Shown: positions 1 through 53,820 of the stretch, piece after piece
How positions within the stretch are numbered: the first letter of the stretch is position 1
Layout of the letters: every line of letters starts with the position of its first letter
Notes under the pieces: generated by a model
What the model was told of the DNA's origin: nothing
The model's input: only the letters and a program-made list of their open reading frames with translations
Database searches by the model: none
Translations under genes and position numbers: made by a program
DNA from: an uncultured Fusobacterium sp.
Lineage (GTDB): Bacteria > Bacillota > Clostridia > Lachnospirales > Lachnospiraceae
Length of the DNA stretch: 64,000 nucleotides
Direction of reading: 5' to 3'
NCBI GenBank assembly: GCA_963540885.1
Contig: CAUTRK010000009.1
Coordinates: 26 to 64,025, forward strand

Positions 1-77
1 ACTCAACTGGGTCTATCCGACCCACAATTATTTATCGCCGGGCGGTTTCGTTTCCTCCGCCGCCCGTCGGCTATAAC

Positions 78-181
78 AGGACGGGAGCCGTAGTTCGCGT
101 TCGAGTTCGAGAACCCATTGTTGCAGTTCCGATAGCGCGGAGACACGTTCGAGCCATTGTTCAAGTTGCCGCCGAAGAACG
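78..181 (-). repeat. DGR template repeat (TR)
   Basis: 104-nt copy of 321-424 that differs at 12 positions. All 12 are T on the plus strand (A on the coding strand) in this copy. In frame it reads as an AAC(Asn)-rich version of the fibre C-terminus. Confidence 0.85.
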
Positions 182-268
182 CAGACCGACTCAAGTGCTC
201 TTCCGAAGCCCTGAAGGTTTATAGTTACATTGGTTACTAAAGTTTTTACGCTGTGGCTATGCAGCATT

Positions 269-290
269 CGCGGGGGAGAAATCCCCCGCG
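269..290 (-). promoter_or_regulatory. GC-rich hairpin just downstream of the VR/stop codon (DGR target-recognition type hairpin)
   Basis: cgcggggga-gaaa-tcccccgcg forms a 9-bp stem with a 4-nt loop, 19 nt past the stop codon at 309-311. No U-run follows it on the minus strand. Confidence 0.55.
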
Positions 291-308
291 TGCCCTCTTA
301 AATGGTGT

Positions 309-2282
309 TCATCGCTTAAGAGGACGGGAGCCGTAGTACGCGTGCGAGCGCGAGAACCCATCGTTGCAGGACCGAGAGCGCGGAGACACGATCGAGCCAT
401 CGTTCAAGGCGCCGCCGAAGAACGGCCGCTGGCCGTTTTTATTCTTCCAGCAATACGCCGCCTCGTAGGTTTCCGAACCACCCGATACATCATCCGGCAT
501 CTGCAGGATCGGATAATCACGGAAGAAATATTCCTTCTTGATGTATCCGTTGAAGCTGTAATTTGCATCTCCGTCGCCGTTCAGTTTCAGCACTTCCGGA
601 AGCAGCACATAGCCGTCTCCGTAGGCATCCGAGTATTTGGACGGATCCTTGCAGACGTACATCTCCAGACCCATCTTGTCCTCGTTGAACTTAAGGTTCA
701 TGCCGTCAACGCCGGTGTGCAGCATTCCCCAGAAATCCTCGACCCACAGCGCACGGACGGAATGAACGCCGTCGTTCGGGCCGCAGGTTCCGTTCGGGCT
801 TGCCATGGATACGGTCGCGCCGGTCTTCTGTGCGCATCTCCATACCATCGACGTTCCCGCAGTGATATTGACCGCTGCGCCGTCGAAGGTGATGTCCGCG
901 GCATTGTCATAGCCTGCGCTTTCCGCGATCGCGGTGATAACCCGGTCACGCGCAATGGAAAAATTCCACATACCCGTGCCGATGCATACGGTCATGCCGA
1001 CGCGCATCTTTGTGGCATTTCCCTTGCTGATCGTGATCGTGTTCGTTCCGGTCGCGGTGTTGAGTGCCGCATAAGCTGTGCTGCCCGAATCACAGAAGCC
1101 ACGGCCAAATGTGGTGCGGAAGTTGGCGTTTGCGCTCATGATCTCCATAAGATAGGTCATGACTTCCCATGCCCACACATCAATGATCTGCCAGTCGGAG
1201 CCGTTTGTCTTGACAGAAGTTCTGTCCGCCGTGACGGTTCTGCTGTGGGCCGGGAACATGCCCGCCGCCGACACGAAATGCCCTGCGCCGTTCAGTGCGC
1301 CAAGGAAGATCGGGAAATAGAAGTGATCTGTTTCCGTCCCGTCTGCCCGCTTCATCAGTTCCCGGACGCTCACGCTGTGCGGATAGCGCGGCGAATCGGC
1401 GATGATCTTGTATTCCCAGTTCTGGCCGCTCTCGTCCTTCTGGAAGAAATGCGAGATATACATATCCGTCGGCACTTCATCCATGAGGGAAGTATCCTCC
1501 GCCGCCGTCCCTTCGGTCGCGTACCAGTCAAAGTCCGCGTCCCCGAGATAGGCAAGCACCGTGCCGTCCATTTTCAGGTTGCACGGCTTGATCTGGTTGT
1601 ACGGCCACATCTCCATGAGGTCATTCTGCACGGACTCGTCGCCCCGTGCGTACTCCACGGTTGCCCCGGTCGCCTGGCCGATCCTGGTCCATGTGGTCGT
1701 GCTCTGCGGCGTGCCGTCTGCCGTGCACTTCCGCTTGATGCCGACCATGCCCGCGCTTGCTTCTTCGAGCGCCGTCACCCTTACTTCCAGGTCTTCAAAA
1801 TCCTCGATGGATACCAGGCCGCCCGGGCTTACCTTGATCGTGATGCTCGTCGCATTGCCGACTGACATGTAGTCGATATACCGGAGAGAACCGGGTGCGA
1901 CATTGTTGTAGGCGGGCATCCAGTCCGGATGCTCCGGATCCGCAACGGTAATGGAATAAAGGATTTCCGCGCCGTCGCTTCCTTTTGCGAAGACGCCGAC
2001 CTCCGTTACATAGAAGCCCTCCGTCACTTCCAGGTTGGAAGCGTTCAGCGTCAGCTTGCAGGTCGCGTCGTTGACGACTTCCGCTTTCGTGACCGGATAA
2101 GTGGTCTTCGGAGATTTCAGCGCAGTCCTTGCGGCCAGTGCTTCCGTAGACTCGCTGCCCGTATAGGAACCGTTGCCAAGCTGGAACCGTGTAAATTCAA
2201 TGGAGCTGGATGTGCCCGCAAGGCATTTCGCATGGAGCGCCGAGCCTGCTGCCGTCAGCACCTTTTTATAATTTCCAAGCAT
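309..2282 (-). CDS. Tail fibre / receptor-binding protein, DGR target (C-terminal variable lectin-like region)
   Basis: 657-aa ORF that is last in the tail module. Its N-terminal ~170 aa are homologous to the 372-aa fibre protein at 3688-4806. The C-terminus contains the VR. Confidence 0.8.
   Translation of the reverse strand: MLGNYKKVLTAAGSALHAKCLAGTSSSIEFTRFQLGNGSYTGSESTEALAARTALKSPKTTYPVTKAEVVNDATCKLTLNASNLEVTEGFYVTEVGVFAKGSDGAEILYSITVADPEHPDWMPAYNNVAPGSLRYIDYMSVGNATSITIKVSPGGLVSIEDFEDLEVRVTALEEASAGMVGIKRKCTADGTPQSTTTWTRIGQATGATVEYARGDESVQNDLMEMWPYNQIKPCNLKMDGTVLAYLGDADFDWYATEGTAAEDTSLMDEVPTDMYISHFFQKDESGQNWEYKIIADSPRYPHSVSVRELMKRADGTETDHFYFPIFLGALNGAGHFVSAAGMFPAHSRTVTADRTSVKTNGSDWQIIDVWAWEVMTYLMEIMSANANFRTTFGRGFCDSGSTAYAALNTATGTNTITISKGNATKMRVGMTVCIGTGMWNFSIARDRVITAIAESAGYDNAADITFDGAAVNITAGTSMVWRCAQKTGATVSMASPNGTCGPNDGVHSVRALWVEDFWGMLHTGVDGMNLKFNEDKMGLEMYVCKDPSKYSDAYGDGYVLLPEVLKLNGDGDANYSFNGYIKKEYFFRDYPILQMPDDVSGGSETYEAAYCWKNKNGQRPFFGGALNDGSIVSPRSRSCNDGFSRSHAYYGSRPLKR
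321..424 (-). repeat. DGR variable repeat (VR) inside the 3' end of the fibre gene
   Basis: Offset by 243 nt from the TR. The 12 mismatches all fall at TR adenines. It encodes ..FFGGALNDGSIVSPRSRSCNDGFSRSHAYYGSRP. Confidence 0.85.
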
Positions 2283-2338
2283 GTTTTATCCTCCTGATGA
2301 TATTCTTCAAGCGCCGCCCCCTGGCGCGTGAATTTGGT

Positions 2339-3691
2339 TTAATAAACAATGACTGCCTGAATGAAGCAAAGTGTCGCGGCTCCGCTGTCGGCTGTGCACT
2401 GTACTTTGATCACATCGCCTTTTTTTACCGCGAACGATTTGTTGAACATAGTGTTTCGCCAATAGTAACTCGTTCCGGTAAGGTCTCTGTTATCCACAAC
2501 ACTGCCGTTCTTCATGATCCGGCACAGTCCGTTTCCGCTTGCGTTATACTTTGCGGCAATTCCGCCGTAGTATACCGTTCCGTCCTCCGGCATGGTGAAT
2601 TCCTGTGTTTCGTCAATGTCGGTCTGGCCTGAACCAAATCCGCGAATCGCCTGTGCTGCGATAACCTTCTTGTTCCCGTACCATGTTCCGGTAATGCCTG
2701 CAAACGTCGTTCCTTTTTTGATGGTTGCGGCAGTCAGCGCCATGGTCCCCGTGATCTTTCCGTCTTTTCCATACGCTGTTTTGCTTTTCAATATCTGGTC
2801 TGCGGTTGCTGTCGCGTCAGATCCATAGGTGCCTTTGAGTCCGGCAATGGTCGTGCCGTTCTTAATGACCGACGCGACAATGCCGAGTGCTTCACGCACC
2901 TGCGCAAATGTCCTGGAAAGATAGTTCCCTTTCGTATACCGCCCCGTCTCCGGCACGGTATAGCGGAGCTGTGAGCTGCCAGTGTCGGCTGTGCAGGCGC
3001 TGGCCGCTACGTTGCCTTTGTCCGGCATGGCTCCGTCCCGGTATGCGCCGTTTACCCATGCGCCGTATCCGTCAAGAATCTGCGCCGCCGCTGCCGCGCT
3101 GTCCCCGGACTTCGGCTGTGTCTGCGAGGATAATGTCGCCGCCTTGACGCTGCCTGCCTGGTGGAAACCTTTTTGTATCTTGTATTCCTCCCCGCAGTTC
3201 AGCGTTGCCGCTGCCGCCGCAAAATCTCCCGCTTCTCCGATCTGCCTCCCGTCCTTGTCGTAATAAACTTTGCCGTCTCTTACGTCCGCTGTGGTGGCTG
3301 TCGAATCGTTCCCGTAGGTTCCCGCGATTCCCCCGGCCTCTTCCCCGTTGGCAATCACTCCCGGTTCAATCCCGATTTCTGCTGGATACACGCCGACATA
3401 AGCAGTGTTGTCTCCCGGATACTTTCCATCCGGCGGGATAATGGCGATCTGCTTGTCTCCGTTGGTATCCGTCGTAACAGAGACGCCGACAGACTGATGG
3501 ACCGGCACATTCGGACGGGACGCAGAATACCCCGGCGCTCCGTACTGCTTCTGCCGGTCGATCATGGTTCCTTCCTGCGGTTCTTCGTCCCCGGCTCCGA
3601 TGAATGCTTTCCCTTCCAGTACGTCCGCCGGTTCTGCTGTCAGCGCGTCATAATCCACCGTGTCGCCGCCCGGTATCATTCTGAGGATCAT
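2339..3691 (-). CDS. Tail fibre-associated protein with internal repeats
   Basis: The motif A(D/A)x(I/V)LxGKxxY..G...G(T/A) recurs about 5 times (ADVLEGKAF, ADVRDGKVYY, AAQILDGYGAW, ADQILKSKTAY, TIKKGTTFAG). The start at 3691 forms an ATGA overlap with the upstream stop. Confidence 0.6.
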   Translation of the reverse strand: MILRMIPGGDTVDYDALTAEPADVLEGKAFIGAGDEEPQEGTMIDRQKQYGAPGYSASRPNVPVHQSVGVSVTTDTNGDKQIAIIPPDGKYPGDNTAYVGVYPAEIGIEPGVIANGEEAGGIAGTYGNDSTATTADVRDGKVYYDKDGRQIGEAGDFAAAAATLNCGEEYKIQKGFHQAGSVKAATLSSQTQPKSGDSAAAAAQILDGYGAWVNGAYRDGAMPDKGNVAASACTADTGSSQLRYTVPETGRYTKGNYLSRTFAQVREALGIVASVIKNGTTIAGLKGTYGSDATATADQILKSKTAYGKDGKITGTMALTAATIKKGTTFAGITGTWYGNKKVIAAQAIRGFGSGQTDIDETQEFTMPEDGTVYYGGIAAKYNASGNGLCRIMKNGSVVDNRDLTGTSYYWRNTMFNKSFAVKKGDVIKVQCTADSGAATLCFIQAVIVY

Positions 3692-4806
3692 GCGCTCACC
3701 CCCTTGATTTTCAGGCCGAAATCCGCCTGCGGGCATCTCTCACAGCATATCAGCCTGATCTTTCCCGCCATTCCTTCCGCATATCCTTTCCCAAAGAACA
3801 AGGATGCTGCTTTCTTCTCTGCCAGGATTCCCGCCGCCGTTTCAGCAATGATGTTCTGCCACACTTCCGCGTCCGTGCTTTCTGTCATGTCCGAAACGGT
3901 AATCTCCTGCGTAAAGATCGTAATACCGCCGGAGCTTCCTTCCGTCCAGCTTGCCGCTCTTGCGGTCACGGCAACTTCGGAAAGTTTTTTCTCCACATTC
4001 TCTGTTCTGATTTTCAGCGCCGCTATGGCGTTTTTGTTTTCCGTGATCTGCTGCTGCAGGGTGGCTGATGCTTCCGAGCCAAGCGGGAGTTTGAAGTATC
4101 CATACTCCCCGGACTGCAATAGCTGCCATACATAGATTTCCGAACTGTCGGTATCCACATAGATTGCATCGGCCTGTCCCGTCTCCGGGAAGTCGGCAAG
4201 CGACCTTGATACCACATTGGTATCCGCCCATCCATATTCGTTTTCGATGGACGATGATTTTTTCAGGTATTGCCCGCCGCTGCCGCCTGAAAGCCCCGCA
4301 ATGATCCGCAGCACACTGTTTCGGAATGCGGTATACTCTGCCGCCGACACATGCGCACCGTCCATGTTGATCGTCACGGAGGAGGAATTGGCGACTTCCA
4401 GATTGATTCTCTGAACGATATTGCTGTATCCCACGCCGTTGTAAGCGGGAACGTAGGTTGACTGCGACTCCGCCGCAAGGACGGCATAAAGAATCGTTCC
4501 TTCGTCCGGATCCTGCGCCATGATCCCGGCCTCGTTGAGATAATAAAGCTCCGTCAGGCTTTCGTTCGTGATGTTCACCGTCACGACCACTGTTGACGGG
4601 TTGCCGTCCGGGATGGAGATGTCGGAAAACGCGAACTGCTGCCTCGGTTCCTTCAGGGCGTTTGCATACTCCAAGTCTTCATCCGCCGCCCAAAGCCCGG
4701 AGCCTGTGACAAATCCCGTAAACTCAATGTTCGTGAGATCCGCCTGTGCCTTTGCGATAAGCTGCTGCCCCTTCCTTGTCAGGGCATACCGTGTAAATAT
4801 TGCCAT
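3688..4806 (-). CDS. Tail fibre protein (tail-collar fibre N-terminal domain)
   Basis: 372 aa. The N-terminus (..IEFTGFVTGSG.., ..EAGIMAQDPDEGTILYAV..) is paralogous to the N-terminus of 309-2282. It follows the baseplate genes. Confidence 0.65.
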   Translation of the reverse strand: MAIFTRYALTRKGQQLIAKAQADLTNIEFTGFVTGSGLWAADEDLEYANALKEPRQQFAFSDISIPDGNPSTVVVTVNITNESLTELYYLNEAGIMAQDPDEGTILYAVLAAESQSTYVPAYNGVGYSNIVQRINLEVANSSSVTINMDGAHVSAAEYTAFRNSVLRIIAGLSGGSGGQYLKKSSSIENEYGWADTNVVSRSLADFPETGQADAIYVDTDSSEIYVWQLLQSGEYGYFKLPLGSEASATLQQQITENKNAIAALKIRTENVEKKLSEVAVTARAASWTEGSSGGITIFTQEITVSDMTESTDAEVWQNIIAETAAGILAEKKAASLFFGKGYAEGMAGKIRLICCERCPQADFGLKIKGVSA

Positions 4807-4819: not shown

Positions 4820-5632
4820 CTACATTAGTACCGACAAAGTGTCCTGAACGACCGCAAGGCCGGTATAGATTCCTTCCGGCCACTCGTATTCCCCTATGGT
4901 TTCCACGGTCACGGAAAGAGAGTCATAAGCCACGCCTATTGCAAGATGAAGCGGAACCTCCGTCTCCTGCTCCCGCTCCTTGCGAAACAGCGCGATATCT
5001 TCCACCAGCTCCGAGACTTCCCCGAGCGCGAAATATTCTCCAATCGGATATCCCTGTCCCGGGTCGTTCACATTGATATCGTTCGTGAGCATGGTCTTTT
5101 CATCCCACGCCGTCCCGAACAGATGCTTCCAGTCCGCGTCCACATCCCGGATTCCGGTAATAGACGCAAGGACGGAGCGGACATTTTTCACGCTGCGGAT
5201 GATCTGCTCAATCCTTGCCGCTGTCGTTGGTGAAAACTGCGCCGTCGTCTCGATCTCGAACATGTACGGATCCAGTCCGTTCTCGAACCACTCCGTCACC
5301 TTTCCGCTTCCGAAAACCGTATTGACCATTCTCTCGACGGCTGCCGTCGTGCCGGACTGCATTTCATTGATGATCGCATCTTTCAGCATTTGCCGTCTGG
5401 TTGCTTCGTCTGCGGTATCGTCGTAATACGGCGCGTCGATCTCTGCCGCCAGCGCGTCCACCACCTCGATATCCAGGCTGTCAACATCCGTGTTGACCAT
5501 GGATTTCAGCGTCCAGTCCCGCAGTCTTTGCGACGCGGCCCGCAGCGCCCAGGACAAAGCCCGTACTTTCGGCAGCTTCCTCATTGGTTCCGGGCAGAGT
5601 TCGTAAAACATGACATCGAATAAATCAGTCAT
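4820..5632 (-). CDS. Baseplate protein (P2 gpI / XkdU-like position)
   Basis: 270 aa, immediately downstream of and overlapping the baseplate J-like gene. It ends in a TAG stop. Confidence 0.5.
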   Translation of the reverse strand: MTDLFDVMFYELCPEPMRKLPKVRALSWALRAASQRLRDWTLKSMVNTDVDSLDIEVVDALAAEIDAPYYDDTADEATRRQMLKDAIINEMQSGTTAAVERMVNTVFGSGKVTEWFENGLDPYMFEIETTAQFSPTTAARIEQIIRSVKNVRSVLASITGIRDVDADWKHLFGTAWDEKTMLTNDINVNDPGQGYPIGEYFALGEVSELVEDIALFRKEREQETEVPLHLAIGVAYDSLSVTVETIGEYEWPEGIYTGLAVVQDTLSVLM

Positions 5633-6770
5633 TTTCCACGCCTCCGTAAGTAATGGTCTTCGTCCCGAATGTCGGCACTGCTCCCGCCGGAACGACGGTA
5701 AATGCCGGAGCGCTCAATACGACTCGCTTTGCACCCGCTGCCATGACGAGACGGACAAGGTAATCCGGAACGATATCCCGCCCGATTACCCCGGTCTGCC
5801 ATGCGATATAATCCTCGACCGCCTGCGCTACCTGTGACTGTATCGCCGCCGCCTGGTTCCGCTCCGAATAGTTGATGTAGTAGGTGAAGCTGATATTGAA
5901 TGTCACCTGCCCCACCGGCTCGATCTGCACGGTATCCGTCAGCGGCCTGCGCGTCTTTTCTGACAGGAAGCTGACCAACCCTTCCAGGAATGCCGCGTCC
6001 GGTGTGCTCTTATCCTTCATCAGCAGATATATCTTGACCACGCCCGGCGTTCCGTCTTCTATATAGGCATCTTCTATCAGGCTCGAATAGCTCATGATCC
6101 AGAACTTGTAGGCATCTTCCGAACCGGCTGTGTTCCACTCTGCCCGGGCGGAATAAATCCGCTGCCGCAGCTCGTCGTCTGTCTCCGCGTCCGTGCCGCC
6201 CTGCGTCTCTGATATGTTTGCCACGCTTGCCACATAACCGATGCGGTCAACGAGTGTGTTCAGCTTTCCGGTTTCTATGCCATTCTTGCCGCTTCCGACT
6301 TCCGTGCATGTGCAGGACACATCAATATAGGTGCTGCCTATAGGAATCTCCGCGTACTCGTCTGTCGCAAAGTATGTCCCGCTGCCGTCTGATACCCGCG
6401 TGCCTGCAGGTATGGCGATAACAGAGCTTTGCGCCGCCTGGAGCGTGAATCGAACCGTCGTTACTGCCGCGTCGCCCTCTGACCGCGTAATACCGAACCG
6501 CGCCGCGTAGTTATCCAGATACGCCCCGGTCGCATATTTGAGCATGTTCATCTTGCCCATATTGTCGATCCAGAGCGCCTGCTGATATGTCCGGTCTGAA
6601 TTGACCATGATCAGGATTTTCCACGGCGACGCATCCGGGAGAACGAGAGTGTTCCCCGTGATCTCCTTATACTTTGCCTGGAAGTCTGCCAGCTCATAGG
6701 CGTATTCCTGTTCCAGTGTCAGATTTTCTATGAAACTGACCTCTGGTATCTTGTCAAATACTGTTGCCAT
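5625..6770 (-). CDS. Baseplate J-like protein
   Basis: 381 aa with size, position and sequence character typical of gpJ/XkdT baseplate wedge proteins. Confidence 0.75.
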   Translation of the reverse strand: MATVFDKIPEVSFIENLTLEQEYAYELADFQAKYKEITGNTLVLPDASPWKILIMVNSDRTYQQALWIDNMGKMNMLKYATGAYLDNYAARFGITRSEGDAAVTTVRFTLQAAQSSVIAIPAGTRVSDGSGTYFATDEYAEIPIGSTYIDVSCTCTEVGSGKNGIETGKLNTLVDRIGYVASVANISETQGGTDAETDDELRQRIYSARAEWNTAGSEDAYKFWIMSYSSLIEDAYIEDGTPGVVKIYLLMKDKSTPDAAFLEGLVSFLSEKTRRPLTDTVQIEPVGQVTFNISFTYYINYSERNQAAAIQSQVAQAVEDYIAWQTGVIGRDIVPDYLVRLVMAAGAKRVVLSAPAFTVVPAGAVPTFGTKTITYGGVEND

Positions 6771-13418: not shown

Positions 13419-13943
13419 TTATGTGAGTGCGTTGATCTCCGCCAGCATGTCCACGCCGTTGACCTTGTAAACGGAGTTGAGCTTATCCACCTCGATAAGC
13501 TGCTTGCCGTCCACTTCGATCATGATGTAGGTCAGCTCCAGGGTGACTTCCGCCTCCATGGTCTCGCCCTTCTCCACCTTTCCGGGCTTAAAGGACTTGA
13601 CGCGGCCAACCTCCACGACACGGAGTCCCTTGTGCGTGTATCCGCCGGTCTTGTCATAGACCTGCTGTGCGGCGCGGAAAGTCAGGTTGACGGTTTTCGT
13701 CGGGGACAACATGTCCATAGCGGAGCTGTAAAGGGTGTTGAACGGTACGACCTGCTCCATGCTCTCGAACTGGCCGATAGTGGGGCTATCGATCTCGCCG
13801 CTGATGCCGCCGCCCTCAATGGTGCTGGTCTTCATGTTGATCTCCGGCAGATCCATGGATGCGCCGTTGCCAATCATCTTCGTGCCGTCAAGATAAACAT
13901 TGAAGTCATTGATCTTCTCGGGTACGTAATTATTTCCGATCAT
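13419..13943 (-). CDS. Tail tube protein (P2 FII-like)
   Basis: 174 aa directly downstream of the sheath gene, with N-terminus ..EKINDFNVYLDG. Confidence 0.8.
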   Translation of the reverse strand: MIGNNYVPEKINDFNVYLDGTKMIGNGASMDLPEINMKTSTIEGGGISGEIDSPTIGQFESMEQVVPFNTLYSSAMDMLSPTKTVNLTFRAAQQVYDKTGGYTHKGLRVVEVGRVKSFKPGKVEKGETMEAEVTLELTYIMIEVDGKQLIEVDKLNSVYKVNGVDMLAEINALT

Positions 13944-13956
13944 TTCTCATTCCTCC

Positions 13957-15411
13957 TTATGCCGTGAGCGCAGTCGCAAGGGCGTTCGGGTCGAACTCGA
14001 TCACGTCCTCGATATCCTCTGCCGGGGTATACGGCGTAATGTACTGATGGAAGGTCAGCTTTCCGTCGAGAAGGTCTGCGGTGGTGTTCTCATCCTCGTT
14101 GAAGGTGATTTCATACCGTGCGCAGACTCCACGGGCGACAAAGCCATTTCCGCGTACATTCTCCGAATCCACGATAGCCTCAATCAGCCGCTTATTTGCC
14201 GGGGAGTCTACTTTCTGGAAATAAGTCAGGATAAAGGTATTTGCCGCCCAGCTCATGAAACGCCGCACGGAGAACCATCTGTCCTTCGGGTCAGTGTTGC
14301 CCGGATAAGCCGCCGTGTTATTGCCCCACAGGCGGAAGCCGTTCATGTTGAGCCACGTCGCCACGCCGAAGCTGTTGACGGTGTTCGCCTGCTCCTGGTC
14401 CAGAAGAACCTCCGTGCCGTCCGCAAGGCAGGCTGCGGAAATGGAGATGGTCTTGTTGGACGGGGAGACATTGGGGGTGTCGTCGTTCGCCGCATCGGTG
14501 TATGCGGTCAGAGCGCCCGCCAGGGAGGATCCGCTGTATACGGTGTCGCCAACCTTGCCGTACAGCCATACGTCATAGGCGTTTTCAGAAGTAGCGCCCT
14601 GCGCTTCCTTCTTCGTCTTTACGTCGGTGTACTTCTTGGCTCCGGTCGATCCACAGTCGATGTCGATGATGCAGACGGACTTGAACACGCCGTTCAGTTC
14701 CTTGGTCTTTGCCTGCAGGGCTGCTGCCACGGTTGCGTCTGTAGACCATCTCGGGGCAAGCAGAATGCCCGGGGTCATGCCCAGCTTCGGATATACCTGC
14801 CGCACGACTTCAATGCCGGTCTCTGCGCCCGTAGAGGCGTTCACGCCCCCAACGATATGCGCCGCCGTCACAGCGTCCGGGTTCAGCTTATTGCCGGAAA
14901 CCTTGACTGCGGTTGCGCCGTTGCCATTTCCGCCAGCGATCAGCACGATATCCGCGCTGCCGTCCTCCTCGAATGTCACGGTGTAATCCGTGTCCTTCGT
15001 GAGCGTGGTACTGTCCTTCTTGACGGTAAGGCCGTCCAGGATCAGACCGACAATGCCGGTCTTCGCCACACCGTCAGTCACGGTAACGTTGGTCTCCGCA
15101 ACAGCGGTCTTATGCGTCGCGGGATCCAGCACGTTGATCAGGATGATCGGGCCGTTGCCGACGACCTGGAAGTTTGCCGCAATCGCTTCACACAGCGTAT
15201 ACTTCTCAAAGTCCGGCACAAAGCCCACCGCTTCGACTGCCTCCTTGTAGTTGTATGCGATGATCGGAGTATTCACCGCCGCTGACGGATCCGCCGCCAT
15301 ATTGACCGGAGCCGTGCCAACGATCACCTGCAGGCCAGCCGTTCCCGTAACCGGGGCAACGAGGCTGGTTGCTACTTCGCTGGTGTATACTCCATGCTTG
15401 TAAGTTGCCAT
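13957..15411 (-). CDS. Contractile tail sheath protein
   Basis: 484 aa with N-terminus MATYKHGVYTSEVATSLVAP.. typical of FI-like sheath proteins. Confidence 0.85.
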   Translation of the reverse strand: MATYKHGVYTSEVATSLVAPVTGTAGLQVIVGTAPVNMAADPSAAVNTPIIAYNYKEAVEAVGFVPDFEKYTLCEAIAANFQVVGNGPIILINVLDPATHKTAVAETNVTVTDGVAKTGIVGLILDGLTVKKDSTTLTKDTDYTVTFEEDGSADIVLIAGGNGNGATAVKVSGNKLNPDAVTAAHIVGGVNASTGAETGIEVVRQVYPKLGMTPGILLAPRWSTDATVAAALQAKTKELNGVFKSVCIIDIDCGSTGAKKYTDVKTKKEAQGATSENAYDVWLYGKVGDTVYSGSSLAGALTAYTDAANDDTPNVSPSNKTISISAACLADGTEVLLDQEQANTVNSFGVATWLNMNGFRLWGNNTAAYPGNTDPKDRWFSVRRFMSWAANTFILTYFQKVDSPANKRLIEAIVDSENVRGNGFVARGVCARYEITFNEDENTTADLLDGKLTFHQYITPYTPAEDIEDVIEFDPNALATALTA

Positions 15412-21836: not shown

Positions 21837-23663
21837 TCAGATTCCTCCTGACCTTACCCGTCTTCCTCTGGCTTTCGGTGTCTGCTCCGGATTGATCATC
21901 AGTTCCGCCGGGTTCAGCACTTCCATCATTGCCTGCGCGTAGTTCCGGCAGTCCAGTGGTTCATTTCTCTTGTGAGCGCTGTCCACCAGCTCCCAGACAA
22001 TGACGCTTCGTCCCTTCCGGATCCTGACTACCATTCGCTCCGCTGTCAGCCCCTTAAAATATTCCTCTCCGTATCCTGCTTCCTCGTTCAGCGGGAAATG
22101 ACAGTAGTTCGGGCCGACCGTCTGCATTTTCAGGCGATTAAAGAGAAGTGCCTTTCCTGTGTCTACGCCAATCACAAAGAGCGGCGCTTTCTCGCGGTTG
22201 TTCTTCGTCGGATTCGAGAAGAACGGCACGTCCTGACCGCCCCGGCCTTTCAGCGCCCAGACGCGGCGTTCATATCTTTGTTTCGTGAACCGGTATACTT
22301 CATTCGCATGATGTCCGCCGGAATCGACAAATGCCCCGGCGATCCGCAGCGCTGTTCCGTCTTTCTTGAAAAACGGCTGCAATAAAAAAGCGTCCAGATC
22401 CCGCCAGACCTGTTCGCCCTCCATATATCCGAATATCTTTTGATACCGTATTCCCCAGCTTTCCTTCCCGGCTCCCCAGCCGACCACTTCCACCTCGAAG
22501 CGGTCATCCTGGACATCGACCCCGGCAGTAAGGATGAGCACGCCGTCCGGCACCTGTGCCTCGTAAATCTCCCGCCGGTTGATAAGCTCTGTCTCGTCCA
22601 TGGCGGTTCCCGGCTCGTCCCACGGCTCCCCGAGTTCCGTATTGATCCACGTTTTCAGCTTATCATGGTCGCCCTTCTTCGATAGATCGTCCGCAATGAG
22701 GAACTTCTCCGCAATCTCCTTCCATCCGCAGAAGGTGGAGGCCAGTGTGTTCAGATGGAAGCCCCGGGTTTCCGCTCCCGGATTTGCGGCGACGAAATGC
22801 CCCTGTTGCTCCATCTTCTTCCATTCGTGTTCCTGCGACTGAATGCCGCATTTCTCGCATTCATAGGTCACGCCCTTCGATAAGTCTGTTTTATCGAAAC
22901 GGATATTTCCCCAGGTAAGCGGCTGTAAATGTCCGCACTTCGGACACGGCACACACCATTCTTCCCGGGTGCTTTCTTCAAACTCCTTCGCAATCCGGCT
23001 GTTGACCTTTAATACCGGCGTGCTGACGACCACGGTCTTTTTATCCCAGAACGTCGTCTGACGCTTCATGGCGAGGAGGAGCGGGTCGCCCTCGGAACCG
23101 GCGGACGCCGGGTAACGGTCCACCTCGTCCGCAAGCAATACCTTGATCGGTCGGCTTGCAAGGCTTGCCGGGGAGTTTGCCCCGATGATCGTCACATGTC
23201 CGCCCGGAAAGTTCTTTTTCAAAATCGTGTTTCCGCTGTATCGTGACTTTGTGTCTACCAGTTCCCGGAGAACCGGTGTATCCCGCAGCATAGGCGCGAG
23301 GAAATCTTTTGAGAAGGTCTGCGCCATGTCGAGTGTCGGCTGCATAACAAGTACCGGGGCCGGGTAATAATGCATGTAATAGCCAAGCATGTTCATGAGC
23401 ATTGCGGTCTTTCCAATCTGTGCCGCGCTCATGATCACCACTTTTCTGATATGCGGATCCCCGATGGCGTCCATGATCTCCCGCTGATACGGTGCTTTGT
23501 CTGTATGCCACCGTCCCGGCTCCGCGCTGTTTTCCGCCGAAAGCATCCGGTATCTGTCCGCCCACTCGCTAAGTGTCAGCTCCGGCGGCGGTTTCAGTGC
23601 TGCTATGCACCTCGCGAACATGTCCTCCGTGTTCTTCGGTATGTCTATCGTTTTTCGTTTCAT
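21837..23663 (-). CDS. terL: Terminase large subunit (GpA type)
   Basis: 608 aa containing a Walker-A-like SAAQIGKT and a zinc-ribbon CPKCG...CEKCG, as in lambda gpA-type terminases. Confidence 0.9.
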   Translation of the reverse strand: MKRKTIDIPKNTEDMFARCIAALKPPPELTLSEWADRYRMLSAENSAEPGRWHTDKAPYQREIMDAIGDPHIRKVVIMSAAQIGKTAMLMNMLGYYMHYYPAPVLVMQPTLDMAQTFSKDFLAPMLRDTPVLRELVDTKSRYSGNTILKKNFPGGHVTIIGANSPASLASRPIKVLLADEVDRYPASAGSEGDPLLLAMKRQTTFWDKKTVVVSTPVLKVNSRIAKEFEESTREEWCVPCPKCGHLQPLTWGNIRFDKTDLSKGVTYECEKCGIQSQEHEWKKMEQQGHFVAANPGAETRGFHLNTLASTFCGWKEIAEKFLIADDLSKKGDHDKLKTWINTELGEPWDEPGTAMDETELINRREIYEAQVPDGVLILTAGVDVQDDRFEVEVVGWGAGKESWGIRYQKIFGYMEGEQVWRDLDAFLLQPFFKKDGTALRIAGAFVDSGGHHANEVYRFTKQRYERRVWALKGRGGQDVPFFSNPTKNNREKAPLFVIGVDTGKALLFNRLKMQTVGPNYCHFPLNEEAGYGEEYFKGLTAERMVVRIRKGRSVIVWELVDSAHKRNEPLDCRNYAQAMMEVLNPAELMINPEQTPKARGRRVRSGGI

Positions 23664-40382: not shown

Positions 40383-40460
40383 CCCGAGCGGTGGGAGTCG
40401 AACCCACCATGCCGCACTAATGACCGTTGAGTGTTGCGGTGCCGGAACGGGAACGCCCGG
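40383..40460 (-). ncRNA. tRNA-like element B (tRNA 3' half or aberrant tRNA)
   Basis: Perfect T arm GUGGG-UUCGACU-CCCAC plus a 3' acceptor strand CGCUCGG-G. The only complementary 5' strand (CCGGGCG) overlaps element A. There is no D arm. A CCGCA/UGCGG stem encloses an 18-nt loop. Confidence 0.3.
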
Positions 40461-40521
40461 AATTGAACCGGAATCAAAGGTCTTACTCCCTTGCGAAGCT
40501 CTACCGTTGAGCTACATTCCC
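40448..40521 (-). tRNA. tRNA-like gene A with a non-canonical anticodon arm (isotype unassignable)
   Basis: Acceptor GGGAAUG/CGUUCCC, D arm GCUC-AACGGUA-GAGC and T arm UCCGG-UUCAAUU-CCGGG are canonical. The anticodon region folds only as a 6-bp stem CAAGGG/CCUUUG with loop AGUAAGA, which lacks U33. Confidence 0.4.
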
Positions 40522-40649
40522 GTGCGCGGTCCATCCAAAGATCGGTTCAAGCAAGACCGCCTGCGTCGGCTTATCTCCGCTCCTTTCGGTCACGACTTCT
40601 CTTGCCTTTCCTGTGAGCTGTTCTCCGCGCGGTAGTATTTCATTTCTTA

Positions 40650-40723
40650 TCGGGAATCCGGGACTCGAACCCGGGACACGCGGCTTATAAGGCCGCCGCT
40701 CTAACCGCCTGAGCTAATTCCCA
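40650..40723 (-). tRNA. tRNA-Ile (anticodon UAU)
   Basis: Full cloverleaf: acceptor UGGGAAU/AUUCCCG (U1-G72), D stem GCUC/GAGC, anticodon stem GCGGC/GCCGC, loop CUUAUAA, T arm CCGGG-UUCGAGU-CCCGG. No CCA is encoded. Confidence 0.8.
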
Positions 40724-40936
40724 AAATCGCGCCATATCCCCAAAGGCGCGTCCTACTTCTCCGAGTACCTGACTACCGGATTTTCGATTTTCTCGCTCGA
40801 CTGGATTTCAGGGTTCCAGCAGGAGGAGGATTCGTTCTGCCGCACTCCTGCATACTACAGATATCTATAGCATCGGAAATCCGCGCGTTCGGGAAACTGT
40901 AAACCCGTCTGGTTTAGCGAGGGAAGATACCTCGGC

Positions 40937-43493: not shown

Positions 43494-44380
43494 AGCATGT
43501 TCCCCTTTGCTTTCTGATATGCCGCCTGCCACTTTCTGTAGTTCTCCATAACCGCCCGCGAATATTCCGTGCTGTCATACTTTGCCGAACCCATGTTGTA
43601 AGCGACGACCGCCCGCTCCGTCTCTCCGTACCTTCTGACGCAATCCCCGTATACATAGATCGCGCCCTTGATATTCAACTCATAATCAAGCATTTCGTCC
43701 ATGGAGCTGATACCGAACATTTTTTTGAATGTTCCCTGCCAGGACTTCCGGTTGAGCTGAAACAGCCCGTAATCATGCGTGTTATGATTGACCGCTGTCG
43801 TGCTGAATGTCCCACCGGTTTCCTTGTCTGCCAGCGCAAGCGCCATGATGTAGTCATATCCCGCGCCCGTCCACATGGTATAAAGTGTTTTCTGCTGCTC
43901 CCGTGTGAGCGGCACTTCTTCCAGATAGATAAACCATGCTGCCTCGTCCGGTTCCGTTTCTTCTGTCGGTGCTGCTGCCGTCTCCGCCTGCTCCGCCGTC
44001 TCGATTGGCGGTGCTTCATCGATCTCGATTACATCCCGTTCCGAATGAATCTCAATCATGATTGGTTCTTCCGCCGTCTCCATCGTCTCGACTGCTGCCA
44101 TGGCCGGGAATGTGTCCGCCGTGTTTGCCCCGATGAATACCGCGACTGTTGCCAGGACTGCTCCCGCTGCCGCGATAGTTCCCCGGCAGGCGGTTCTTCT
44201 CCGTCTTATCCTTCTGCGGATCCTTGCCGCTTTCTGGAATGTGGCTCCCGCCGCCATCATCAGCATACATGCCAGCATACCGCCGACTGTCACGCTCACC
44301 TCATTCAAATCAGCCCCGGACGCAAAGAGCATTTCCCCGAAAAATCCGATACCGATCAGAACATCCCCGACCACCTTCAT
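43490..44380 (-). CDS. Membrane-anchored lytic transglycosylase (SLT domain)
   Basis: N-terminal TM helices, an acidic linker, and a C-terminal ..ADKETGG...HDYGLFQLN....AYNMG.. Confidence 0.65.
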   Translation of the reverse strand: MKVVGDVLIGIGFFGEMLFASGADLNEVSVTVGGMLACMLMMAAGATFQKAARIRRRIRRRRTACRGTIAAAGAVLATVAVFIGANTADTFPAMAAVETMETAEEPIMIEIHSERDVIEIDEAPPIETAEQAETAAAPTEETEPDEAAWFIYLEEVPLTREQQKTLYTMWTGAGYDYIMALALADKETGGTFSTTAVNHNTHDYGLFQLNRKSWQGTFKKMFGISSMDEMLDYELNIKGAIYVYGDCVRRYGETERAVVAYNMGSAKYDSTEYSRAVMENYRKWQAAYQKAKGNML

Positions 44381-44381
44381 T

Positions 44382-44621
44382 TCACACCTCCTGCTTTAAT
44401 CTCTCCTTATTCCAGTATGTTTTTTCCTGTGCCACTTCCGCCCTGTACTCCGGTTTTCCGTTCTTGTCCACATTCCCGGTTCTTCCCCTGCGCAATTCCC
44501 TATAAATCACCGATCTGTCTGCGCCTAAGACTCTTGCAATCTCCATGACCGAGCTTCCATTCTCGTAAAGTTCTTCAATCTTCTTTCTGTTTTCCAGCGT
44601 AAGCCATGGTCTCCTGTTCAT
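44382..44621 (-). CDS. HTH DNA-binding protein
   Basis: 79 aa with ..ENRKKIEELYENGSSVMEIARVLGADRSVIYRELRRG.. (HTH_38/IS30-N-like). Confidence 0.6.
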   Translation of the reverse strand: MNRRPWLTLENRKKIEELYENGSSVMEIARVLGADRSVIYRELRRGRTGNVDKNGKPEYRAEVAQEKTYWNKERLKQEV

Positions 44622-44638
44622 TCCTTCCCTCGTCTTTC

Positions 44639-44932
44639 TTATATTTCAATCCTTCGATACACTGTCAGTTGCAGATCCGCAAAGCTATAGTCCGCCAGCT
44701 TATCCGGTTCCAACGGGTTTAACAGTCCTCGTTCCTTCCACTGCTTATGCGAAATGTCCGTTTGAATTGTCAGCCTCTTAACCGGCCTATCCTTCACTGC
44801 TTCATATTCTTGGCAATGGTTGAGCATGATCCCGCGATATCCGGCGAATATAACCCTGCTGCCCTCCGTTATCATCACACTGTCCGGATTTTCCATGAGT
44901 TCTACTATCTGACTGACTATGACCGGCTCCAT
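44639..44932 (-). CDS. Hypothetical protein (first gene at the right prophage end)
   Basis: 97-aa ORF. Confidence 0.45.
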   Translation of the reverse strand: MEPVIVSQIVELMENPDSVMITEGSRVIFAGYRGIMLNHCQEYEAVKDRPVKRLTIQTDISHKQWKERGLLNPLEPDKLADYSFADLQLTVYRRIEI

Positions 44933-48554: not shown

Positions 48555-48667
48555 ATCCTCTCCCCGATGCTCCGGAGCCTCCGAAGCCTCTGACGCTGCC
48601 GACCACACTCCGGCTCCGCCGCCCATCCCTCCGCGGGAGGGCAGTCTCCTTTTTGCGGCGCTCTTAT

Positions 48668-50562: not shown

Positions 50563-51219
50563 TCATCCGCACAGCGCGGGGATCCCAATCCAGTAAAACA
50601 GAAGAAGCCCAACAAACAAAAGCCCGAACAGCAAATACGCTGCGCCCGACGGCTTCCTGACGGGAATATCCAGAATCTCAAGGACGCCGATAGCAGGAAG
50701 CGCCCAGCCGTAGAAAACTGCGAACTGCGCAGCTGTCAGCCTCCACAGAAGGGCGTAGAGGAGAGGCAGCAGCAGCGCTGTATAGGTGACCGGAAGCCCG
50801 CGATAAAAGTGGAGCGGTTCTCCGTCCATCTCCCCGACAAGAATATGAAAGTACGCGAGCCGCGCAATGCCGCAGACTGCAAAGAAAATCAGCAGGAGCA
50901 AACGATACCATGTCATCGCGCCGAGGGACAGCGCGATCACAGCAGGAAAGGCGACAAAGCTGACCGCATCCGCCAACGAGTCCAGTTCTGTCCCAAAGTG
51001 TTTTTCTTCTTCACTTCGCCTGCAGCGTCTCGCCACAGGTCCGTCCGCAAGATCGAAGACCCCTGCAAAAGCGAGGCAGCTCATTGCTGCGCGGAGGCGG
51101 AACGCCGGGAGCTCCGCCCCCGGAAGCCCTCCTGCCGCGAAGCCCATGCCAAGAATCGACGCAGCGACACCCGCGTAGGTCAGAACGACAGATCGGTTCC
51201 ATTTTCCAACTATTTTCAT
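50563..51219 (-). CDS. pssA: CDP-alcohol phosphatidyltransferase (phosphatidylserine synthase-like)
   Basis: DLADGPVARRCRRSEEEKHFGTELDSLADAVSF matches DGx2ARx8Gx3Dx3D. Confidence 0.8.
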   Translation of the reverse strand: MKIVGKWNRSVVLTYAGVAASILGMGFAAGGLPGAELPAFRLRAAMSCLAFAGVFDLADGPVARRCRRSEEEKHFGTELDSLADAVSFVAFPAVIALSLGAMTWYRLLLLIFFAVCGIARLAYFHILVGEMDGEPLHFYRGLPVTYTALLLPLLYALLWRLTAAQFAVFYGWALPAIGVLEILDIPVRKPSGAAYLLFGLLFVGLLLFYWIGIPALCG

Positions 51220-53765: not shown

Positions 53766-53820
53766 CGCTCCGCTCCCTTCATCGCCTTCCCTGTCGGCAC
53801 AGCCTTTCTCACCCAGGCGC

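What the first reader, a model, noticed from the sequence alone, without database searches (positions are those of the whole stretch)
1..440. Diversity-generating retroelement targeting the terminal tail-fibre gene (RT off-window)
Two 104-nt copies (78-181 and 321-424, offset 243) differ at exactly 12 positions. At every one of these the 78-181 copy carries T on the plus strand, which is A on the coding minus strand (positions 95, 101, 106, 107, 119, 127, 128, 133, 148, 158, 166, 167). That is 12 of the 22 T in that copy; no other base differs. The 321-424 copy is the last ~35 codons of the 657-aa fibre ORF (..FFGGALNDGSIVSPRSRSCNDGFSRSHAYYGSRP). The 78-181 copy reads in the same frame as an AAC-rich template (..FFGGNLNNGSNVSPRYRNCNNGFSNSNANYGSRP). 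Adenine-only TR-to-VR divergence at the C-terminus of a receptor-binding protein is the defining DGR signature. Only 127 bp separate VR and TR, so there is no avd between them. The RT and any accessory gene must lie left of position 1.
Basis: partly seen in the sequence, partly recalled or inferred. Interest (0 to 1): 0.8.

Follow-up and report, generated by a model that had tools for sequence, protein, structure and literature searches.

The report
Prophage tail-fibre diversity-generating retroelement
The left end of this window holds the template and variable repeats of a diversity-generating retroelement, which rewrites the tip of a prophage tail-fibre gene at adenine-coded positions; it is a clean but ordinary example, and its reverse transcriptase lies just outside the window.

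Summary
Window 78-181 and 321-424 are 104-nt direct repeats (offset 243) with 12 differences. All 12 lie at coding-strand adenines of the 78-181 copy (12 of its 22 A; chance 3.7e-10). The 321-424 copy is the 3' end of a 657-aa tail-fibre gene.

Seven independent related metagenomic loci carry the same cassette. In them, 93 of 96 TR/VR mismatches are at TR adenines. A PF00078 reverse transcriptase, whose best solved match is Bordetella bRT, starts about 165 nt after the TR. The Rfam RT-18 RNA lies between TR and RT.

Two near-identical contigs differ at 21 of 6,966 nt. Fourteen of those are in the VR, all at TR-adenine sites, so the lineage is actively diversifying.

The window TR matches the BPP-1 TR itself (76%, E 2e-8). 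A 9-bp GC hairpin with a 4-nt loop follows the VR.

No avd is present. This is the known accessory-less "Architecture A" (29% of DGRs).

The window ends 77 nt after the TR, and its own contig could not be retrieved. The RT is therefore inferred by synteny only.

Small lineage quirks: an IGxxxSR RT motif, reversed hairpin-loop polarity, and a conserved RT-overlapping 112-aa ORF.

The parts
309..2282 (-). DGR target gene: 657-aa terminal tail-fibre / receptor-binding protein. It has an N-terminal tail-collar-fibre-type domain and a variable C-terminus.
   Evidence: ORF. PHROG 5302 'tail protein' E 4e-52 over the full length, and PHROG 7037 'tail fiber protein' over residues 7-164. It lies downstream of Baseplate_J, Tail_P2_I and a PF12571 fibre gene. 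147 homologues were found, many carrying PF12571.
321..424 (-). Variable repeat (VR), 104 nt, covering codons 621-654 of the target gene.
   Evidence: 12 differences from the TR, all at TR adenines. In the closest protein cluster, column entropy is 0.90 bits over residues 621-654 against 0.087 bits over residues 1-620.
321..333 (-). Adenine-free, G+C-rich 3' end of the VR (CGGCTCCCGTCCT), identical in the TR (78-90). It is the IMH-like block where TR/VR homology ends; the next base differs (C in VR, G in TR).
   Evidence: Read from the sequence. The block is invariant in all 8 loci. Its function as IMH is inferred by analogy with BPP-1 (PMC5758913, PMC3240598).
270..291 (.). Target-site hairpin/cruciform. 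It has a 9-bp G+C-rich stem and a 4-nt loop (sense strand CGCGGGGGA-TTTC-TCCCCCGCG) and lies 29 nt downstream of the VR.
   Evidence: DNA fold of 255-325(-): -21.3 kcal/mol, z = -5.5, 0 of 200 shuffles as stable. It is conserved in all relatives, with a compensatory G-C/A-T change in the stem. It matches the 7-10 bp GC stem and 4-nt loop element required for BPP-1 retrohoming (PMC3240598), but the loop polarity is reversed.
182..217 (-). Conserved segment immediately upstream of the TR (CCTTCAGGGCTTCGGAAG.GCA..TGAGTCGGTCTG). It is the probable 5' flank of the template RNA.
   Evidence: It is conserved across all 8 loci while the rest of the VR-TR spacer varies in sequence and length. The role is inferred.
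78..181 (-). Template repeat (TR), 104 nt with 22 adenines: 10 AAY codons plus TAT and TAC in the VR reading frame.
   Evidence: It matches the annotated TR of Bordetella phage BPP-1 at 76% identity over 92 nt, E 2e-8. The TR is identical or nearly so between relatives whose VRs differ.
25..77 (-). TR-proximal part of the TR-RT spacer, including a conserved stem-loop at 40-65 (GGGCGG...CCGCCC).
   Evidence: 52 of 53 nt are identical to L001. The RNAalifold consensus hairpin has 5 of 10 pairs kept through changes on both sides.
1..24 (-). Divergent end of the spacer. It contains a local hairpin (TGGGTC..GACCCA). The last 4 nt fall where stem P1 of the RT-18 RNA begins in relatives. The RT-18 RNA, the RT and the 112-aa ORF are predicted beyond position 1.
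   Evidence: Relatives have RT-18 (RF03021, 50-60 bits) starting 69-70 nt after the TR and the RT ATG about 165 nt after the TR. The window is about 4 nt longer in this sub-region. The continuation is inferred and not observed.

Best explanation
Window 78-181 is the template repeat (TR) and window 321-424 is the variable repeat (VR) of a diversity-generating retroelement. The element sits in a P2/PBSX-like myovirus prophage of a Clostridia-type host.

Proposed mechanism, by analogy with BPP-1:
1. An RNA spanning the TR and its flanks is made. The flanks are the conserved 5' segment (182-217), the 3' stem-loop (40-65) and, off-window, the RT-18 structured RNA.
2. The element's own reverse transcriptase copies this RNA. 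The RT gene is predicted to start about 90-100 nt left of window position 1.
3. The enzyme copies U, C and G faithfully but inserts any nucleotide opposite template adenines.
4. The mutagenised cDNA replaces the VR at the 3' end of the 657-aa tail-fibre gene. Homing is directed by the shared adenine-free G+C-rich end (321-333) and the GC hairpin/cruciform at 270-291.
5. Ten AAY codons and two TAY codons are randomised, giving up to about 9e12 peptides with no stop codon possible. This varies the receptor-binding tip and hence host range.

No Avd is involved. This lineage belongs to the accessory-less target-TR-RT architecture.

What is shown: the repeats and their adenine-only divergence; the hairpin; the tail-fibre context; ongoing diversification in the lineage; and the RT plus RT-18 in all relatives.

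What is inferred: that this prophage still has the RT, and the mechanistic steps listed above.
For: - Repeat and adenine-only pattern; chance P = 3.7e-10.
- Eight independent loci give 105 of 108 TR/VR mismatches at TR adenines. Non-adenine TR differences between loci are mirrored in the cognate VR, which indicates TR-to-VR information flow. Two more distant loci give 18/18 and 18 within the core repeat.
- L001 and L019 are the same phage from two samples. They have 21 differences in 6,966 nt, 14 of them in the 104-nt VR, all at TR-adenine positions.
- In the 90% protein cluster of 52 members, hypervariable columns coincide with the TR A-codons.
- The window TR matches the annotated BPP-1 TR, and the VR peptide aligns with the Mtd VR.
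- A hairpin follows the VR, z = -5.5, as required in BPP-1.
- In relatives the RT follows the TR: PF00078 E 2e-18; PHROG 1423 reverse transcriptase E 7e-84; best solved match bRT 8ub7, E 2.6e-12, with the R74 and I181 equivalents conserved; YVDD catalytic motif.
- RT-18 RNA lies between TR and RT in all 10 relatives scanned.
- Synteny shows the prophage continues left of the window. The SLT and p118 genes, which follow the lysis cassette in phage contig L022, lie at window 43.5-44.9 kb next to host genes.
- Accessory-less DGRs are documented: Architecture A, 75 of 372 (PMC5758913).
Against: - The RT of this prophage is not in the window (tblastn).
- Its contig could not be retrieved.
- The last 24 nt of the window differ from all relatives, including in the otherwise invariant GTCCTTAGC that precedes RT-18.
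- The clade's RT motif is IGIDPSR rather than the signature [I/V/L]GxxxSQ.
- The hairpin loop is TTTC on the sense strand, whereas the published consensus is GRNA on the sense strand.
- A C-type-lectin fold was not recovered from the PDB fold search.
- No promoter-like site lies between VR and TR.
Confidence: 0.88

Rival explanations
1. Orphaned or fossil DGR. The TR/VR pair is real and was made by mutagenic retrohoming, but in this prophage the RT has been lost, truncated or inactivated, so the VR is now frozen.
For: The RT is not in the window. The last 24 nt of the window diverge from all seven close relatives, including in the otherwise invariant GTCCTTAGC that precedes RT-18. A weak terminator-like hairpin on the + strand at 8-24 could belong to a gene entering from the left.
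Against: There are zero differences at the 82 non-adenine positions between TR and VR. The TR flank 25-77 is 52/53 identical to active relatives. The divergent sub-region is also variable among relatives and differs by only about 4 nt in length. All tail genes in the window are intact full-length ORFs. Every one of 10 related loci keeps TR, RT-18 and RT together. The terminator-like count is not above the shuffle expectation (3 found against 2.3 expected).
Confidence: 0.1
2. An ordinary partial gene duplication or recombination cassette (a pseudogene fragment of the fibre 3' end, or a silent cassette for gene conversion) that diverged by ordinary mutation.
For: A direct repeat of a gene's 3' end just downstream of that gene is also what a tandem duplication or a cassette system would leave.
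Against: Ordinary mutation does not place 12 of 12 differences (105 of 108 over 8 loci) on the adenines of one copy only. The donor copy is AAY-rich and invariant while the recipient varies. An RT gene and an RT-associated RNA are always adjacent in relatives. No invertase or recombinase sites or inverted repeats flank the copies.
Confidence: 0.01
3. The 78-181 copy is part of a genuine protein-coding gene (the 63-aa TTG-initiated ORF 3..194 on the - strand), that is, a small paralogue of the fibre tip.
For: An ORF in the VR frame spans the copy.
Against: The ORF exists only because the TR keeps the VR frame. Downstream of the TR the relatives differ by indels and by compensatory stem changes typical of RNA structure, not of coding sequence. 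The start is TTG. The region matches the non-coding TR of BPP-1.
Confidence: 0.01

Closest known systems
Bordetella phage BPP-1 DGR (mtd-avd-TR-brt), the prototype
   Same: The gene order and orientation match (target with C-terminal VR, then TR, then RT). Both show adenine-only TR-to-VR divergence and AAY-rich TRs. The TRs share recognisable DNA similarity (76% over 92 nt), and the VR peptides align (FFGG..N..GS...R vs LFGGAWNGTSLSGSR). Both have a GC hairpin with a 4-nt loop after the VR and a structured RNA between TR and RT. The target is a phage receptor-binding tail protein in both. The RT of relatives finds bRT as its best solved match, with the R74 and I181 equivalents kept.
   Different: There is no avd; only 139 nt separate VR and TR. 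The spacer RNA is Rfam RT-18 (RF03021) rather than Phage_DGR (RF03022), which scores 104.7 bits in BPP-1 and is absent here. The RT motif is IGIDPSR rather than IGSLTSQ. The hairpin loop GAAA is on the antisense strand instead of the sense strand. The target is 657 aa with a tail-collar N-terminal domain and an inserted beta-barrel, against 381 aa for Mtd. The host is a Clostridia-type Firmicute rather than Bordetella.
Accessory-less DGRs: 'Architecture A1' (target-TR-RT) and Mtd-type target 'category a' of Wu et al. 2018 (PMC5758913)
   Same: The cassette consists only of target, TR and RT, with no avd, HRDC, MSL or CH1 gene. This is 29% of the curated set. The VR is CLec1/Mtd-like at the C-terminus. 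Wu et al. already list one Mtd-type target with an N-terminal phage tail-collar fibre motif.
   Different: I could not check whether this RT clade is one of their named lineages; Lineage 3/3A is described as Bacteroides-associated. A conserved 110-125-aa acidic ORF overlapping the RT 3' end accompanies the RT throughout this clade and is not among their accessory classes.
Rfam RF03021 RT-18 RNA motif (Weinberg et al. 2017, PMC5737381)
   Same: All ten relatives scanned match above the gathering score, immediately upstream of an RT gene, as the motif was defined. Weinberg et al. showed that RT-10 lies between the TR and RT of BPP-1 and speculated that other RT motifs serve other DGRs.
   Different: In that paper RT-18 had no assigned element. 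Here it sits in the TR-RT spacer of a demonstrably active DGR lineage. The motif itself lies outside the window, which holds at most its first 4 nt.
Retrons and group II intron RTs
   Same: The RT of relatives also hits group II intron/maturase and retron RT models and structures.
   Different: All those NCBIfam hits are far below their cut-offs (for example TIGR04416 at 107 bits against 300). There is no intron RNA domain and no msr/msd. The TR/VR adenine pattern is not a feature of those elements.

Membership tests
Diversity-generating retroelement (DGR) | A TR/VR pair of near-identical repeats whose differences fall (almost) only at adenines of the TR | tested here: met
   12 of 12 in the window, P = 3.7e-10. 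105 of 108 over 8 loci. 18/18 in L024.
Diversity-generating retroelement (DGR) | The VR lies inside a protein-coding target gene (usually its 3' end), and the TR is a nearby non-coding copy with adenines at codon positions 1-2 (AAY) | tested here: met
   The VR covers codons 621-654 of the 657-aa ORF. The TR is 139 nt downstream. All 22 A are at codon positions 1-2, in 10 AAY codons.
Diversity-generating retroelement (DGR) | A DGR-clade reverse transcriptase encoded next to the TR | not testable with these tools
   The RT is off-window. There is no RT in the 64 kb, and the window's contig could not be retrieved. In all 10 related loci an RT of 377-383 aa starts about 165 nt after the TR.
Diversity-generating retroelement (DGR) | RT signature motif [I/V/L]GxxxSQ (against QGxxxSP in other RTs) and a YxDD active site | tested here: inconclusive
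   Tested on relatives only. They have IGIDPSR (I, G and S kept, Q replaced by R) and YVDD/YIDD in all 7. Of the 120 listed homologues, 72 have IGxxxSQ and 25 IGxxxSR. The motif definition is from PMC7826257.
Diversity-generating retroelement (DGR) | Target-site elements: a G+C-rich end of homology (IMH) and a GC-rich hairpin/cruciform with a 4-nt loop 4-34 bp downstream of the VR | tested here: met
   Adenine-free GC-rich end at 321-333. A 9-bp GC stem with 4-nt loop at 270-291, 29 nt from the VR, z = -5.5. Conserved with a compensatory change. The loop is not GRNA on the sense strand; GAAA is on the antisense strand.
Diversity-generating retroelement (DGR) | Population-level hypervariation confined to TR-adenine positions, showing activity | tested here: met
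   Tested in the lineage, not in this strain. L001 against L019: 14 of 21 differences fall in the VR, all at TR-A sites. Cluster entropy is 0.90 bits in the VR against 0.087 bits elsewhere.
Diversity-generating retroelement (DGR) | The variable protein presents the VR on a C-type-lectin (or Ig) fold | tested here: inconclusive
   AF2 model of the last 299 aa has pLDDT 82. PDB Foldseek gave no CLec, Mtd or TvpA hit; the best E was 1e-3, to a beta-barrel only. BFVD hits were tail-collar fibre proteins (E 8e-20), crAss-like fibres and one protein annotated as TvpA-like (E 7.7e-6). Profile searches link only the 40-residue VR to Mtd (E 0.026) and found no PDB sequence hit.
BPP-1-type (Architecture B) DGR | The avd accessory gene (about 128 aa, basic, PF05635) adjacent to the TR | tested here: not met
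   There is no room between VR and TR (139 nt). There is no tblastn hit to BPP-1 Avd in the window or the loci. No PF05635 appears among the called genes of L022, L023 or L024 or among ten small window ORFs. The RT-adjacent 112-aa ORF is acidic (pI 4.5) and predicted as a sheet plus a long helix, not a helical bundle.
BPP-1-type (Architecture B) DGR | The Phage_DGR (RF03022, RT-10) spacer RNA between TR and RT | tested here: not met
   RF03022 is found in BPP-1 (104.7 bits) but in none of the relatives, which carry RF03021 RT-18 instead.
Accessory-less DGR, Architecture A1 (Wu et al. 2018) | A cassette of target(VR)-TR-RT with no avd, HRDC, MSL or CH1 | tested here: met
   The window shows target-VR-TR with no intervening gene. 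Relatives complete it with the RT. The definition is from PMC5758913. Whether the conserved 112-aa ORF is an accessory gene is unresolved.

The most novel reading that the evidence does not exclude
The cassette may belong to a coherent Avd-independent DGR clade with its own machinery:
- the RT-18 RNA in place of the BPP-1 spacer RNA;
- an RT with IGxxxSR in place of IGxxxSQ;
- a target hairpin whose G-rich arm and loop polarity are reversed relative to the published sense-strand GRNA rule;
- a conserved, acidic 110-125-aa protein whose gene overlaps the RT stop by about 53 nt, acting as a new, non-Avd accessory factor.

The protein is predicted as a four-stranded sheet plus a long helix and has no Pfam, PHROG or PDB match. 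It co-diverges with the RT down to 50% RT identity, across different targets and different lysis cassettes.
Probability: 0.25. Interest if true: 0.55.

Novelty: new member of a known kind. Interest (0 to 1): 0.3.

Why it matters
The immediate value is for annotation. The 657-aa gene is the host-range determinant of this prophage, and its last 34 codons should not be used for strain typing or clustering, because they are rewritten at about 12 codons.

More broadly, the lineage is a well-sampled, demonstrably active DGR that works without Avd. How accessory-less DGRs prime and home is an open question raised by Wu et al. 2018. This lineage offers defined candidates to test: the RT-18 RNA, the IGxxxSR RT, the reversed hairpin and the RT-overlapping 112-aa ORF. 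It also gives the orphan Rfam motif RT-18 a concrete genomic role.

None of this changes what DGRs are understood to be.

Tried and rejected
**Retrieving the window's own left flank (all failed).**
- Exact-product look-ups failed for the fibre protein, two neighbouring tail proteins, the terminase and host DnaX.
- An exact 42-nt TR pattern found nothing in viral contigs.
- A 36-nt invariant TR pattern found nothing in GTDB genomes. In metagenomes and IMG/VR it found relatives only.
- A protein-based scan of genome contigs found no relative.

**RT or second target within the window.** tblastn with the relatives' RT gave no hit. A TR-with-A-as-N scan found no second VR.

**Avd.**
- tblastn with BPP-1 Avd gave only noise.
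- Pfam on ten small prophage ORFs found no Avd.
- The RT-adjacent 112-aa ORF has no Pfam, NCBIfam or PHROG family, no tblastn hit in 50,697 phage records and no PDB fold match. It is therefore neither Avd-like nor demonstrably XkdW-like.

**C-type-lectin fold.**
- Sequence and profile searches of the PDB were negative.
- Foldseek against the PDB was negative.
- The model contains an inserted beta-barrel, which dominated the hits.

**Other checks.**
- No sigma-70-like promoter lies between VR and TR.
- Minimum-free-energy folding of the whole TR-spacer RNA of L001 was no more stable than shuffles (z = +0.57). Only the local, covarying elements are claimed.

**Readings rejected on the mismatch spectrum and on indel/covariation patterns.**
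- The 63-aa ORF over the TR as a real gene.
- Plain duplication.
Full report
**1. The observation**

Reading window 1-2700, a repeat search and a base-by-base comparison confirm the finding to the nucleotide.
- Window 78-181 and 321-424 are direct repeats in register at offset 243.
- Over 104 nt they differ at 12 positions: 95, 101, 106, 107, 119, 127, 128, 133, 148, 158, 166 and 167.
- At each of these the 78-181 copy has T on the + strand, which is A on the - strand. That copy has 22 such bases.
- The repeat ends at a C/G mismatch at 77/320.
- The 321-424 copy encodes residues 621-654 of the 657-aa ORF 309..2282(-).
- In the same frame the 78-181 copy reads FFGGNLNNGSNVSPRYRNCNNGFSNSNANYGSRP. 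All 22 adenines are at codon positions 1-2, in ten AAY codons plus TAT and TAC.
- The probability that 12 random mismatches all fall on the 22 adenines is 3.7e-10.
- The repeats are 139 nt apart. The "127 bp" in the finding is the distance from the stop codon to the TR.

**2. Context**

The 657-aa gene is the last gene of a tail module, read on the - strand:
- Baseplate_J (5625-6770)
- Tail_P2_I (4820-5632)
- a PF12571 tail-collar fibre gene (3688-4806)
- a 465-aa gene
- the 657-aa gene

The 657-aa protein matches PHROG "tail protein" over its whole length (E 4e-52) and "tail fiber protein" families over residues 7-164.

Further right in the window are gp25, GpU and spike genes, a large terminase at 21837-23663 and phage early genes. 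From about 45 kb onwards there are host genes: PEP-utilising enzymes, dnaX at 59623-61209, and the large bacterial SRP RNA at 62595-62858. The window is therefore a prophage in a Firmicute-type chromosome, cut a few hundred bases after the fibre gene.

**3. Related sequences**

The window's own contig is in none of the collections, but relatives are. IMG/VR and metagenome scans gave seven independent loci with the same fibre gene at 74-90% identity. Protein look-ups gave three more: L022, L023 and L024.

Every one of them has a VR/TR pair in the same place.
- Over the window plus seven close loci, 105 of 108 TR/VR mismatches are at TR adenines.
- The VRs all differ from one another.
- Where the TRs of different loci differ at non-adenine positions, the cognate VR carries the same change. 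This is what TR-to-VR copying predicts.
- The two distant loci give 18/18 (L024) and 18 A-mismatches within the core (L023).

Evidence for ongoing activity:
- L001 and L019 come from different samples. They differ at 21 of 6,966 positions. Fourteen of these lie in the 104-nt VR, and every one is opposite a TR adenine.
- The closest protein cluster has 52 members at 90% identity or more. Its mean column entropy is 0.087 bits over residues 1-620 and 0.90 bits over residues 621-654. The variable columns are exactly the TR A-codons.

**4. The missing half**

In all relatives the TR is followed, after about 165 nt, by an ORF of 377-388 aa. Its properties:
- RVT_1 (PF00078, E 2e-18)
- PHROG 1423 reverse transcriptase (E 7e-84)
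- The best solved match is the Bordetella DGR enzyme bRT (8ub7, E 2.6e-12), just ahead of group II intron RTs.
- The two bRT residues shown to promote adenine mutagenesis, R74 and I181 (PMC7826257), are conserved in the alignment.
- The active site is YVDD.

Between TR and RT every relative carries the Rfam motif RT-18 (RF03021, 50-60 bits against a gathering score of 41.3). In BPP-1 the same position is occupied by RF03022 Phage_DGR. This appears to be the RT-10 motif that Weinberg et al. (PMC5737381) placed between the BPP-1 TR and RT.

The window holds 77 nt after the TR.
- The first 53 nt are 52/53 identical to L001. They contain a stem-loop at 40-65 that is kept through compensatory changes in 5 of 10 pairs.
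- The last 24 nt diverge from all relatives, in a sub-region that is also variable among the relatives. The net length difference is about 4 nt, and the final four bases fall where RT-18 stem P1 starts.
- The RT start is therefore predicted about 90-100 nt left of position 1.

Synteny also says the prophage continues leftwards. In the 50.9-kb phage contig L022 the order is RT, the 112-aa ORF, XkdX, holin, lysozyme, then p118 and SLT. In the window, p118 and SLT lie at the other end of the prophage (44932-43505), next to host DNA.

No RT and no second VR exist inside the 64 kb.

**5. Target-site elements**

TR/VR homology ends in an adenine-free, G+C-rich block, CGGCTCCCGTCCT (321-333 in the VR, 78-90 in the TR). 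This block is invariant in all loci.

Twenty-nine nt downstream of the VR lies CGCGGGGGA-TTTC-TCCCCCGCG (270-291). Folded as DNA, the region gives -21.3 kcal/mol, z = -5.5. Relatives keep the hairpin, with an A-T/G-C compensatory change.

This corresponds to the 7-10 bp GC stem and 4-nt loop hairpin/cruciform required for BPP-1 retrohoming and found 4-34 bp after phage VRs (PMC3240598).

There is one difference. The published loop consensus is 5'-GRNA on the sense strand, and BPP-1 has GAAA there. Here the sense-strand loops are TTTC, TCTC, ACCC and ATCC, so the purine-rich loop is on the antisense strand.

**6. Relation to the prototype**

A sensitive blastn of window 1-2400 against 50,697 phage records returned only Bordetella phages BPP-1, BMP-1, BIP-1 and vB_BbrP_003. 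The match was window 93-184 against the annotated template repeat (76%, E 2e-8). At protein level only the VR aligns with Mtd.

An AlphaFold model of the last 299 residues (pLDDT 82) did not retrieve Mtd, TvpA or any CLec structure from the PDB. In BFVD it matched tail-collar fibre proteins (E 8e-20), crAss-like phage fibres and one TvpA-annotated protein (E 7.7e-6).

I therefore treat the VR as a CLec1/Mtd-type VR by sequence, and the fold as not demonstrated.

**7. Accessory genes**

No avd can fit between VR and TR, and none was detected anywhere in the window or the relatives. This is not unusual. Wu et al. (PMC5758913) report 29% of DGRs with no accessory gene (Architecture A; A1 is TR-RT) and suggest Avd-independent homing. 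They also list an Mtd-type target with a tail-collar N-terminal extension.

What does travel with the RT in this clade is a 110-125-aa acidic ORF (pI 4.5).
- Its start overlaps the RT 3' end by about 53 nt.
- It is present in all relatives, including L023 and L024. There the RT is only about 50% identical, the target is different (997 aa in L024) and the lysis genes are different. hhalign gives E 1e-28 to 1e-30.
- It has no family and no match in sequenced phages.
- Its predicted fold is four strands plus a long helix (pLDDT 77), unlike Avd and without a PDB neighbour.
- It is followed by an XkdX-like gene, so it could equally be a PBSX-type tail-module gene. This is unresolved.

**8. RT motif**

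The close clade has IGIDPSR where DGR RTs have [I/V/L]GxxxSQ. Among the 120 best RT homologues, 25 have SR and 72 have the canonical SQ. This is a sub-clade substitution inside the DGR RT family, not evidence against membership.

**9. Verdict**

- Confidence that this is a DGR cassette is about 0.9.
- The residual doubt, about 0.1, is whether this particular copy still has a working RT.
- It is a new member of a known kind: Architecture A1 with an Mtd/CLec1-type phage target.
- The lineage-specific features are worth a note but do not make it a new kind of system. They are RT-18 as the spacer RNA, IGxxxSR, reversed hairpin-loop polarity and the RT-coupled 112-aa ORF.
- Interest: 0.3.

Noticed in passing
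L001 2291-2370; also L002 7802-7881, L004 12253-12332, L005 12236-12315, L013 1281-1359, L018 3366-3445, L019 3554-3633, L022 12275-12354, L023 5903-5983, L024 5913-5992: The Rfam motif RT-18 (RF03021) was defined only as 'near RT genes' with no assigned element. Here it always sits in the TR-RT spacer of this DGR clade, where BPP-1 has RF03022 Phage_DGR. It is likely the priming/spacer RNA of Avd-less DGRs of this type.
   Followed up: partly
L001 3468-3806; L022 13452-13790; L002 8980-9339; L023 7097-7429; L024 7079-7456 (off-window in the window itself): A conserved acidic ORF of 110-125 aa (pI 4.5) overlaps the RT 3' end by about 53 nt in every relative, down to 50% RT identity. It has no Pfam, PHROG or PDB match and is predicted as a four-stranded sheet plus a long helix. 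It is either a candidate new DGR accessory factor or a PBSX-type tail-module gene (it precedes XkdX).
   Followed up: partly
window 270-291; L023 and L024 between VR and TR: The target-site hairpin has its purine-rich 4-nt loop (GAAA, GAGA, GGGT or GGAT) on the antisense strand. The published rule, and BPP-1 itself, have GRNA on the sense strand.
   Followed up: partly
RT of L001 residue 203 (IGIDPSR); same in L002, L004, L005, L013, L018, L022: The DGR RT signature [I/V/L]GxxxSQ is IGxxxSR in this sub-clade (25 of 120 listed homologues). More distant homologues keep SQ (72 of 120).
   Followed up: partly
L005 13195-13700 vs 13760-14266: A tandem duplication of about 566 nt (82-86% identical) covers the RT 3' end and the 112-aa ORF in one relative.
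   Followed up: no
window 40447-40522 and 40649-40724 (- strand): Two tRNA genes, Leu(TAA) and Ile(TAT), lie inside the prophage early region. Both read A/U-ending codons. A low-G+C stretch (45-46%) lies at about 26-30 kb, against 55% elsewhere.
   Followed up: no
window 62595-62858 (-), 59623-61209 (-): The large bacterial SRP RNA (159.5 bits) lies next to dnaX, the usual Firmicute dnaX-ffs neighbourhood. This marks 45-64 kb as host chromosome and places the prophage end near 45.0-45.2 kb, beside the SLT and p118 homologues at 43505-44932.
   Followed up: partly
window 46230-48626 and 51216-53873 (- strand): Two paralogous genes each carry PPDK_N and PEP-utilizers domains (798 and 885 aa) in the host part of the window.
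   Followed up: no
window 3688-4806 and 309-2282 (- strand): Two genes in the same tail module share a tail-collar-fibre-type N-terminal domain. Only the distal one carries the VR. Relatives L008 and L009 share only the N-terminal 168 residues (79%), which suggests modular exchange of fibre tips.
   Followed up: no
L023 9247-10074 (- strand): A Cas7-family (PF05107) gene lies directly beside the lysis module of a related DGR prophage, next to a serine recombinase.
   Followed up: no
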